DNA from: an uncultured bacterium
GTDB taxonomy: Bacteria; Bacillota_I; Bacilli_A; RFN20; CAG-826
NCBI GenBank assembly: GCA_949283025.1
Contig: CASDRB010000012.1
Location: 1-64,000 of the forward strand
Direction of reading: 5' to 3'
Length of the DNA: 64,000 nt
Numbering within the stretch: position 1 is the stretch's first letter; every line of letters begins with the position of its first letter. This document shows, piece after piece, positions 36,001 to 39,000 of this stretch. Made by a program: the position numbers.

Positions 36001-39000
36001 TTTTGATTCCTATAGAAATAGGGTCGGCAAGACCAATTCCATATGCCAATTGAATTTGAATGCGATCAGCAGCTCCAGCAGCAACTAAATTTTTAGCGAT
36101 GTAGCGAGCCATATAAGCTGCTGTTCGATCAACTTTAGTTGGGTCTTTCCCTGAAAAAGCACCGCCGCCATGTTCGGCGGTTCCGCCATAAGTATCGACG
36201 ATGATTTTTCTGCCCGTCAAGCCTGTATCGCCTTTTGGACCTCCAATTTCAAATCGGCCAGTTGGATTAATGTAATATTTAAAATCAGTATTCAAACCAA
36301 AAGATTTAGCAACATCAACCATTATTTGGTCGTGAATAAATTGTTTAAATTGATTCAAATCAACATCACTATTATGTGAACAAGACATCAAAATAGTATC
36401 AATACGAATGTTATCTTTATCAGTATAATCAATGGTTACTTGCGATTTCATATCTGGTCTTGAACCTTTAAATATTCCAGCTTTTCTTAAATTAGAAGCT
36501 TGTCTAACTAGTTTATGAGCAATCGAAATGGCTAAAGGCATATAACCTTTAGTTTCATTTGTAGCATAACCAAACATAATGCCCTGGTCGCCTGCTCCTT
36601 GATTTTCTATATTATCCTTTGCAATGCCCATAGAAATATCTAAAGATTGCTGTTTAACTAAATTAACAATATTGACATTATGATAATCGGTTCCTAATTC
36701 AAAACGGTCGTATCCAATATTTTTCAAAACCTTTTTAACGATAGCATTATAATCAATTGTTCCTTTGCATGTTATTTCTCCAGCAATAATAATCGTATTG
36801 TCGGTAGCTAGCACTTCACATGCCACTCTCGCTAAAGGATCTAGGCTAATTGCTTCATCTAAAATAGAATCAGCAATCTGATCAGCAATTTTATCGGGAT
36901 GTCCTTCTGATACGGATTCAGAAGTAAATAATATTTTTTCTTTTTCCATACTGGCCTCCTTTTTAAAAAAGCCTCCGATAAAGGAGGCTTAAATTCCTTT
37001 CATCGTTCAGATAAATCTGCTAGGAAGAGCACTTACTTTTTTAAAGAGTTGCTACCGCACTTTTTCATTCCTTAATTGCGGTTCTTGATGAAACTTTTAT
37101 TATGATACTAGATTATTGTTTTTAATGCTAGTGAAATTTGATCAGGGCACGATGTTGTTTTTGTTCTTGAACCAGGACATTTAATTCCTTGCAATTTGCT
37201 GATTGCATCGTCAATATTCATCCCAACCAATAAAGATGATATAGCTTGCAAATTGCCAGGACATCCACCAATTATAACAACGTTTGTTATAATTTTGTTC
37301 TCGTGGGAAATTCTAAATTCCCTTGAACAAACATTTTGTGGCTTAAAAATGATTGTTTCCATTATTTAACGATTGTTCCAAATACGGTGCCACTGCATCC
37401 AGCAGCATTCGATTCGTCAGTATCAATATGCATCGCCAAAGCAAAACGATTTTTAATTCTAACAACAACATCATCAAAAATTAAACTTCGATCATTATTT
37501 TGAATTGCTACTTTGACAATATCACCATTTTTGACGCCAAACTCTTTAGCGTCTTCTTCATTCATATGGATGTGTCTTTTTGCAACAATGAGCCCTTCTT
37601 TTAATTCCAACTCGCCGTTAGGACCGACTAATTTAATTGGGGCGCTACCTTTTAAATCTCCCGATTCTCTAACCGGAGCGCTGACCCCTAATGTTCGACA
37701 ATCAGTCAAAGACATTTCGACTTGTCCAGCATCGCGATATGGACCCAAAATTGATACATTAGGTATAGTTTTTTTAGGGCCAACAACATCAACTCTAGAA
37801 GTTGAAACATATTGACCGGGTTGGGATAGCATTGAACGTATCTCAATATTTGCTTCGTTCCCAAATAAAATCTTAAATTGTTCTTCGCTCACATGAATAT
37901 GGCGAGCACTTGTTTCGACTAATATTTTTTTCATAACCCACCTCTTGCGGTTATATCATACACTTTAATAAATAAAAAATCATTAACTTTGTCTATAAAA
38001 AAGTTATACTAATAAAGCAAGAATTATGGAAAAAACTGAGAAAAAACGAAATATTTGGTTAGAACTATTAAGATTTGCCATTACAGGCGCTGTTGCAGCT
38101 CTGTTTGATTATTTAGTCTGCCAATTAATTATTTTAGCTTTTGGCGGCACAAATTTACACGAAGCAATCATCACAACTTTATCTACTGCTGGAGGATTTG
38201 TGATTGGTGTTACTATAAATTATTTTTTATCAACCTTTTGGGTTTATCAAAATGTAGAAGATAATGCAAAAAGCAAAACACCGAAATTTATCATATATTT
38301 TGTTTTATTGTCTATAGGTGGATTAATTGTTTCAATTATTGCAATGTTATTGTGTGATTTAGTTGTTAAAGCAAGCTTTGGATATTCAATCTCTGATACT
38401 TCTTTGATGGAACTAATCAAAAAAGATGGCATCAATTTTTTAAAACAAGGTATATTTTGGTCATATTTTATTTCGTTTTGCATTAAAACATTGGCAGGTC
38501 TTGTTTTTAATTATTTGACAAGAAAATTTATTTTATATAAAGCTCCAAAACAAGAAAAACCAAAAAATCAATAATTAAAAACTGTTGTTTTTTATTTTCA
38601 GTTTGATAAAATAACAAAGCATGCACGAGTGGCGGAACTGGTAGACGCGTACGTTTGAGGGGCGTATAAGGCAACTTGTGTGAGTTCGATTCTCATCTCG
38701 TGCACCAAAATACTAGGAAATTCCTAGTTTTTATTTTAATTAAAACATATAAGAATGATGCTAAATTATTTTTTATTTTTTGGACATATGTAAAAATATA
38801 GTATAGTTCTTTTTAATTTTTGCTTTATCTATGTTTTTATTATCGTTATAATATCACTAAAGGAGAATAGGAAATGAAGATTTCATTGAAAAGTATTTTG
38901 TTTGGTGTTGCTGGCATTTTAGGAATCGTTGCTTTTTGCATGATGTTTTTAACTCCACTCACTGTGAAAGTAGATAGCTTTTTGGGAGGCGGAAACACAG

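What a model noticed while it worked through the whole genome (the two positions that open the first line are those of the whole stretch)
36997..37094. SAM-I riboswitch without P2b and kink-turn ahead of metK
Upstream of metK lies a SAM-I aptamer, missed by the Rfam cut-off, whose P2 arm is a single 6-7 bp helix closed by a 15-17 nt loop: the P2b helix and the G-A kink-turn are gone while the loop still pairs with J3/4. It is read as a working natural SAM-I variant that forms the pseudoknot without a k-turn. That would overturn the view that the k-turn is required for SAM-I folding and supply a smaller aptamer scaffold.
Evidence so far: cmscan RF00162 44.2 bits vs cut 44.4, with 18-19 P2 positions skipped; terminator follows. 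Found before metK in 27 of 30 family loci; P2 region only 26-32 nt; a 4-8 bp loop-J3/4 pairing exists in all 27 and changes sequence compensatorily (GGAA/TTCC, GAGA/TCTC, CAACG/CGTTG, TTAAG/CTTAA; call 52). Pair counts on 26 sequences: P2 93% paired, 6 of 7 pairs with two-sided changes; score 0.405 vs 0.168 shuffled, slid controls under 0.1. SAM-binding core (ATC, GCAAC, GTGC, GAT) invariant. Pattern found in 4 of 5 family genomes and 0 of 56 other Bacilli_A.
(Added by a program. Inside this text positions count along the whole contig: contig position 1 is position 1 of the stretch shown here. "Call 12" and the like, gene names such as g00115 and contig names such as C1 are that model's own, and its searches are not shown. 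The text may have been shortened before it was handed on; [...] marks where a part breaks off. The agent that wrote the report below was given it as the finding of a first reader that could run no searches.)

Follow-up and report, generated by a model that had tools for sequence, protein, structure and literature searches.

The report
SAM riboswitch rebuilt without its kink-turn
In front of the SAM-making gene metK, one family of uncultured bacteria carries an RNA with the core of the textbook SAM-I riboswitch but without its kink-turn and P2b helix; it likely stops transcription when SAM is plentiful, and a short conserved loop motif is predicted to make the missing bend.

Summary
37094-36997 (-) is a SAM-I aptamer (44.2 bits, cut-off 44.4) ahead of a terminator and metK. 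It occurs in 106 of 110 family metK leaders fetched.

Missing: a k-turn (0 of 106; 10 of 11 class controls have one), P2b, and the two J3/4 adenines that dock on P2b (kept in 2 of 106). The loop-J3/4 pseudoknot is kept, is longer and covaries beyond a tree-based null.

New here: (1) the loop ends in U-GNR-A-N-A (118 of 161; C-GNR-C in 13), a T-loop signature that likely replaces the kink; (2) five sister families keep P2b at the same locus (29 of 30) with intact or eroded k-turns, so the loss is likely derived; (3) most relatives have a P4 loop complementary to the terminator, a likely second antiterminator, while the window uses the classical P1 strand.

Overstated: the P2 arm is not smaller (29 nt; 29-30 in controls), and k-turn-free SAM folds are already known (SAM-IV, SAM-I/IV, engineered pk-turn). 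Binding and switching are untested. Verdict: new variant of a known riboswitch.

The parts
37102..37107 (-). -10-like hexamer TATCAT, 7 nt before P1, right after the stop of the upstream gene (predicted promoter element)
   Evidence: sequence; a -10-like box lies 2-16 nt before P1 in 75 of 105 family leaders against 25 of 210 control windows; no full sigma-70 match in the window
37087..37094 (-). P1 5' strand, ending in the SAM-contact AUC
   Evidence: P1 90.7% paired in 99 sequences
37083..37086 (-). J1/2 AAGA
37077..37082 (-). P2 5' strand (single helix, 6 bp here, 7 bp in most relatives)
37060..37076 (-). L2, 17-nt loop standing where P2b and the k-turn would be
37068..37072 (-). pseudoknot strand in L2 (AGGAA)
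37061..37067 (-). U-GAA-A plus two bases: T-loop / lonepair-triloop signature (fold predicted)
   Evidence: motif description in PMC2258182 section 12
37054..37059 (-). P2 3' strand
37028..37053 (-). P3 with the GCAAC and GUGC SAM-binding bulge
   Evidence: 97.2% paired
37022..37026 (-). J3/4 pseudoknot strand (UUCCU); the two adenines of canonical J3/4 are absent
37005..37020 (-). P4, probably closed by G37020-C37005 (C where controls have A)
   Evidence: this pair never varies, so it is not shown by covariation
36997..37004 (-). P1 3' strand; also the 5' strand of the predicted antiterminator
36976..36984 (-). predicted antiterminator partner of 37005-36996 (9 bp, one bulge)
36965..36990 (-). 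intrinsic-terminator-like hairpin (36990-36969) and U tract (36970-36965)
   Evidence: one search lists the hairpin on the + strand only; terminator found in 101 of 106 relatives
36955..36960 (-). ribosome-binding site AGGAGG, outside the hairpin
35783..36949 (-). metK, SAM synthetase, 388 aa (the regulated gene)
   Evidence: TIGR01034, 520.7 bits, cut-off 309.4

Best explanation
This RNA has the core of a SAM-I riboswitch with a rebuilt P2 arm, and it likely switches metK off by early transcription termination when SAM is bound. Shown by sequence comparison: P1, P3 and P4 and the SAM-contact bases are kept; P2 is one 6-7 bp helix; the loop pairs with J3/4 over 4-7 bp; P2b, the k-turn and the two J3/4 adenines are gone together. 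Inferred: SAM binds between P1 and P3 as in SAM-I and holds P1 shut, so the terminator forms; without SAM the P1 3' strand pairs with 36984-36976 and RNA polymerase reads into metK. Inferred, about 0.6: the U-GNR-A motif folds as a T-loop-like turn stacked on the longer pseudoknot helix and sends the chain back into P2, doing the job of the k-turn plus P2b. Inferred, about 0.7, for relatives and not for this window: most family members use the P4 loop to hold the terminator's 3' arm in the ON state.
For: cmscan match and context. 106 of 110 family leaders; 118 of 120 further loci lie before a metK start. Five P2 pairs exceed a tree-based null in an unguided alignment. Pseudoknot: own pairing 4.97 bp against 3.42 across genera, 0 of 2000 one-per-genus permutations; in length classes aligned without using pairing, 3 pairs at E 0.017 or less (n=39) and 2 at E 0.033 or less (n=26). 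Strict k-turn in 0 of 106 against 10 of 11 controls; J3/4 AA in 2 of 106 against 10 of 11. Those adenines dock on P2b in SAM-I (PMC3764141, passages; PMC3064774 section 14). P2b test: 32 of 181, shuffled rate 14%, against 29 of 30 in sister families. UGNRA 118 and CGNRC 13 of 161; no U-C combination among 135. U:A, C:A and C:C are listed closing pairs, and k-turn and UA-handle turn are called topologically equivalent (PMC2615604, passages). Window energies: antiterminator -21.9 against P1 form -19.8 kcal/mol before the terminator is complete; terminator form -32.5 against -27.9 at full length.
Against: No binding, termination or structure data. In T. tengcongensis SAM-I a single change at the 1b-1n pair abolishes binding (PMC3651934, passages), and loss of the adenine triples impairs collapse (PMC3064774 section 14), so the variant may bind weakly. 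In the unguided alignment no pseudoknot column pair was significant; the third length class gave best E 0.083. The U-A to C-C covariation has E 0.125 and sits in five genera that may share one origin. Only about 35% of UA-handle signatures fold as such when conservation is ignored (PMC2615604). 20 of 181 members with short loops mostly lack the motif, so it is not essential. Folding energies ignore the pseudoknot and the ligand. Strict k-turn test hit 1 of 120 held-out loci.
Confidence: 0.85

Rival explanations
1. The loop still makes a k-turn-like kink from non-standard pairs, so this is an extreme k-turn variant and not a replacement.
For: The 3' loop letters A-U-G-A resemble the bulge and 1b/2b letters of sister k-turns; tertiary contacts can force impaired k-turns to fold (PMC3651934, passages); relaxed test positive in 6 of 106.
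Against: A k-turn needs a second helix, and P2b is at chance level. The base at the would-be 2b position varies (A 70, U 10, C 6, G 4 of 90). The 6 relaxed hits are in scattered registers. Five or six bases follow the G on the 3' side with no matching G-A on the 5' side.
Confidence: 0.12
2. The rebuilt aptamer senses a related ligand (for example SAH) or has much lower affinity for SAM.
For: Periphery changes cost affinity in engineered SAM-I (300 uM against 0.54 uM, PMC3672288). 9 of 106 members change a P1 core pair.
Against: All listed SAM-contact bases are kept in the window and in 97 of 106 relatives. Every located copy but two cut ones precedes metK, which fits SAM feedback. The changes lie away from the pocket.
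Confidence: 0.08
3. The leader is a decayed riboswitch that acts as a fixed attenuator.
For: Reduced genomes (about 1.2 Mb); one genus has lost the element (3 of 3); scores near or under the Rfam cut-off.
Against: Compensatory changes in all five helices, invariant GCAAC and GUGC, and a kept alternative pairing to the terminator in 86 of 97 indicate selection on switching.
Confidence: 0.04

Closest known systems
SAM-I / S-box riboswitch (Rfam RF00162; T. tengcongensis structure 2GIS as described in PMC3764141 and PMC3064774)
   Same: P1, J1/2, P3 bulge, P4, L2-J3/4 pseudoknot, terminator platform, metK context; best Rfam match in the window and in 8 of 19 relatives tested
   Different: no P2b, no k-turn, no J3/4 AA; pseudoknot mostly 5-6 bp; C instead of A before the P1 3' strand; UGNRA motif in L2; P4-loop pairing to the terminator in most relatives
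SAM-IV riboswitch (PMC6890682, passages)
   Same: same ligand core; keeps PK-1 without a k-turn
   Different: SAM-IV keeps P2a plus P2b, lacks P4 and has P5 and PK-2; this RNA has no P2b, keeps P4, and no SAM-IV match was reported
SAM-I/IV riboswitch (PMC6890682, passages)
   Same: undivided P2 helix, P4 present, no k-turn
   Different: SAM-I/IV lacks PK-1; this RNA keeps and lengthens it. Undivided P2 with PK-1 is the combination none of the three has
Engineered pk-turn SAM-I (PMC3672288)
   Same: SAM-I fold without a k-turn
   Different: artificial, keeps P2b, binds with Kd 300 uM against 0.54 uM
T-loop / type R1 lonepair triloop / UA-handle (PMC2258182 section 12; PMC2615604; PMC6158498)
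   Same: U-GNR-A followed by two bases before a helix; U:A, C:A, C:C closures
   Different: here the base before U pairs in the pseudoknot, not with the base after the two-base bulge; fold not shown

Membership tests
SAM-I (RF00162) | Rfam gathering score 44.4 bits | tested here: not met
   44.2 bits in the window; met by 4 of 19 relatives
SAM-I (RF00162) | SAM-contact core: P1 AUC/GAU, J1/2 GA, P3 GCAAC and GUGC | tested here: met
   window; ATC/GAT 97 of 106, J1/2 GA 106 of 106
SAM-I (RF00162) | four-way junction P1-P4 | tested here: met
   4 of 181 relatives lack P4
SAM-I (RF00162) | L2-J3/4 pseudoknot (PK-1) | tested here: met
SAM-I (RF00162) | k-turn in P2 (tandem G-A, 3-nt bulge) | tested here: not met
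   0 of 106 against 10 of 11 controls; 1 of 120 held-out loci
SAM-I (RF00162) | P2b helix with J3/4 adenine triples | tested here: not met
   P2b 32 of 181 at about the shuffled rate; AA in 2 of 106
SAM-I (RF00162) | binds SAM and switches gene expression | not testable with these tools
   inferred from core, metK context and terminator
SAM-IV | P2a plus P2b, no P4, P5 and PK-2 present | tested here: not met
   no P2b, P4 present; no SAM-IV hit kept (clan overlap keeps only the best)
SAM-I/IV | undivided P2 | tested here: met
SAM-I/IV | absence of PK-1 | tested here: not met
   PK-1 present
T-loop / lonepair triloop | UGNRA sequence with two following bases | tested here: met
   window 37067-37061; 118 of 161
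T-loop / lonepair triloop | trans Watson-Crick/Hoogsteen 1-5 pair in three dimensions | tested here: inconclusive
   U-A 118, C-C 13, C-A 3, A-U 1; covariation E 0.125; no RNA 3D tool

The most novel reading that the evidence does not exclude
A fourth architecture of the SAM clan: a whole peripheral module (k-turn, P2b, adenine triples) was swapped in nature for a T-loop-capped long pseudoknot, with intermediates still visible in sister families, and most members run termination through a P4-loop pairing with the terminator, so SAM would switch the gene without a P1 strand exchange.
Probability: 0.4. Interest if true: 0.72.

Novelty: new variant of a known kind. Interest (0 to 1): 0.55.

Why it matters
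The k-turn is treated as required for SAM-I folding because point changes in it abolish binding. A family-wide natural form without it shows that the requirement is for a route from P2 to J3/4, and suggests what can replace it. The order gives a ready series of natural sequences, from intact k-turn through eroded k-turn to none, which makes motif replacement in RNA directly testable by probing. The P4-loop antiterminator, if real, is a second way to couple this aptamer to termination. Practically, Rfam misses most members, so SAM control in these genomes is under-annotated. It is not a new ligand or pathway.

Tried and rejected
Own-genome search with RF00162 found nothing; the custom model found the locus at 93 bits and one weak hit (E 0.03) that reads like coding sequence. 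Single-sequence folding is not unusual (z -1.03). A loose pattern search was uninformative. The pattern search of the order missed the sister-family riboswitches because their P1 ends differ; the covariance model found them, so my first reading 'absent from other families' was wrong. Column covariation for the pseudoknot failed in the unguided alignment because of register shifts. A second ON-state helix between the linker and the terminator's 5' arm is not above shuffles (5.08 against 4.80) and is dropped. Position-wise test of the P4-loop pairing was clear at +1 (122 of 139 against 69% expected; 9 coupled changes against 0-2 slid) but not at +2 and +3, where slid controls matched the coupled counts. 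A metK tree (144 columns, quick method) neither showed nor excluded one origin for the family. RNA data: one RNA run with a small share, contigs only, no cover of the leader; no conclusion. No match in viral contigs. 'Smaller scaffold' rejected for the main form.

Full report
Observation. The minus strand at 37094-36997 matches Rfam RF00162 at 44.2 bits (cut-off 44.4, E 2.6e-8), with the P2 arm skipped by the model. P2 folds as 6 bp with a 17-nt loop. A hairpin with six U follows at 36990-36965, then AGGAGG and metK. The upstream gene ends at 37108, directly before a -10-like hexamer; such a box lies 2-16 nt before P1 in 75 of 105 relatives against 25 of 210 control windows. No full promoter was matched in the window.

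Spread. MetK was found in 116 of 121 family genomes. I took the leaders of the 110 best-scoring metK matches, leaving out one partial match, one duplicate and the weakest or secondary copies. 106 of 110 carry the aptamer; three from one genus lack it and one is cut off. A scan of 28 of 64 parts of the species collection returned 120 loci, 118 with a metK start downstream; the other two are cut short. Titles include Ca. Onthovivens and Ca. Alloenteromonas pullistercoris. PMC8035907 (passages) places Ca. Enteromonas pullistercoris in order RFN20, family CAG-826, so the family is probably CAG-826; that link is inferred, and the equivalence of the two genus names is recalled. Several records titled as unrelated taxa have small genomes and MetK 62-72% identical to the window's, which fits mislabelled family members; kinship was not reported. 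A variant-motif pattern hit 24 of 41 family genomes and 0 of 359 others in the phylum sample, which held only this class.

What is kept. On an unguided alignment of 99 distinct aptamers, 92.1% of cells pair and 28 of 34 pairs show two-sided changes; slid controls give 35-43%. With my own tree-based null, five P2 pairs and pairs in P1, P3 and P4 are significant. The pseudoknot was not significant by columns there. Two other tests support it. Each loop pairs with its own J3/4 over 4.97 bases on average against 3.42 across genera, and 0 of 2000 one-per-genus permutations reached the observed value. In the three largest length classes (104 of 181 sequences), aligned on motifs only, pseudoknot pairs reached E 0.017 or less (three pairs, n=39), E 0.033 or less (two pairs, n=26) and at best E 0.083 (n=39).

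What is lost. A strict k-turn test is positive in 0 of 106 and 1 of 120 held-out loci. Among 31 pattern loci from other families, 11 had a P1 of 6 bp or more and 10 of these were positive; the eleventh looks like a chance match. A 3-bp P2b is found in 32 of 181, in scattered registers, against 14% in shuffled loops. The two adenines after GUGC-N, which form triples with P2b in SAM-I (PMC3764141 passages; PMC3064774 section 14), are kept in 2 of 106 against 10 of 11 controls. The base before the P1 3' strand is C in 105 of 106 and A in those 10 controls. So the module went as a unit. The arm did not shrink: median 29 nt (24-33) against 29-30.

What replaces it. The loop ends in U-G-N-R-A-N-A directly before the P2 3' strand in 118 of 161 sequences with P2 of 28 nt or more, and C-G-N-R-C in 13. 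This matches the T-loop description in PMC2258182 (section 12). PMC2615604 (passages) lists U:A, C:A and C:C as closures and calls the k-turn and UA-handle turn topologically equivalent. The covariation is not significant (E 0.125), and 20 short-loop members mostly lack the motif. The fold is a prediction.

Sister families. A covariance model built here hit 39 of 40 family genomes and 30 of 109 genomes of other families in the order. All 30 lie before metK. 29 of 30 have P2b; 9 have a standard k-turn, 9 a k-turn changed at 2n, 11 have P2b without the 1b-1n G-A pair (one of these reads as standard by eye), and their pseudoknot is mostly 3-4 bp against 5-6 here. With k-turns in class controls too, loss in this family is the simplest reading. 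The metK tree did not resolve the order of events.

Switch. In the window the P1 3' strand can pair with 36984-36976. This form is favoured before the terminator is complete (-21.9 against -19.8 kcal/mol) and the terminator form at full length (-32.5 against -27.9). Among 97 distinct leaders with a terminator, 18 are of this type, 66 instead have 5-9 bases of P4, centred on its loop, complementary to the terminator, 2 have both and 11 neither. In held-out loci 74 of 82 are of the P4-loop type. CCA in P4 and UGG in the terminator occur together in 140 of 178 and are both absent in 25. The pairing covers three or more bases of the terminator's 3' arm in 113 of 139. None of the 30 sister leaders has the loop motif. 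How SAM would control this pairing is unknown.

Known relatives. It works like SAM-I but fails two defining features, so I do not file it as an ordinary member. SAM-IV keeps PK-1 with P2b and no k-turn; SAM-I/IV has an undivided P2 and no PK-1 (PMC6890682, passages). A pk-turn in SAM-I binds SAM weakly (PMC3672288, parts 1-2 of 4), and A1nC abolishes binding (PMC3651934, passages). Natural P4-less SAM-I are known (PMC12714719, passages). PMC5473149 and PMC6158498 were seen as passages only.

Novelty. Nine paper searches showed no description of a natural SAM-I with an undivided P2 and PK-1. The library holds open-licence papers only. The original SAM-IV and SAM-I/IV papers, their supplements and the Rfam full alignment were not seen and could hold such members, since 4 of 19 pass the cut-off. 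Four earlier notes of this scan describe what seems the same variant, one with the P4-loop idea; I saw them after my tests and they are not independent evidence. Verdict: new variant of a known kind, interest 0.55.

Noticed in passing
L171:2178-2275 (-), family genome G236: A second SAM-I-like element in a family genome that does have a k-turn and P2b, lacks P4, has a weak P1 and a terminator-like hairpin, with no long reading frame downstream on its strand; 28.6 bits to RF00162. Possibly a relic or an imported copy.
   Followed up: partly
L105, L108, L110, L287: Members that lack P4 as well as P2b, k-turn and the UGNRA motif (92-95 nt); with L088 (24-nt P2) the best candidates for a minimal natural scaffold.
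   Followed up: partly
L063, L065, L073: One genus has no riboswitch before metK.
   Followed up: no
L336, L342-L344, L350, L353: Sister-family SAM-I with P2b but A in place of the k-turn's 1b G; the partner position of this pair is one where change abolishes binding in the model riboswitch.
   Followed up: partly
order sample, families f3 and f7: No hit of the model in 0 of 40 and 0 of 31 genomes; how their metK is controlled was not examined.
   Followed up: no
window 37108-37934 (-): Phosphate propanoyltransferase (PduL/EutD type) and a TIGR03905 TSCPD gene lie directly upstream with no terminator found between them and the leader, so read-through transcripts would also meet the switch.
   Followed up: no
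window 39459-40795 (+): Two overlapping reading frames (39459-40136 and 40082-40795) that look like halves of one CotH-kinase-like gene split by a frameshift (family name recalled, not searched).
   Followed up: no
L180; G265, G347, G356: Tandem canonical SAM-I riboswitches about 180-210 bases apart in one family of the class; in L180 the pair precedes an ABC transporter ATPase gene.
   Followed up: no
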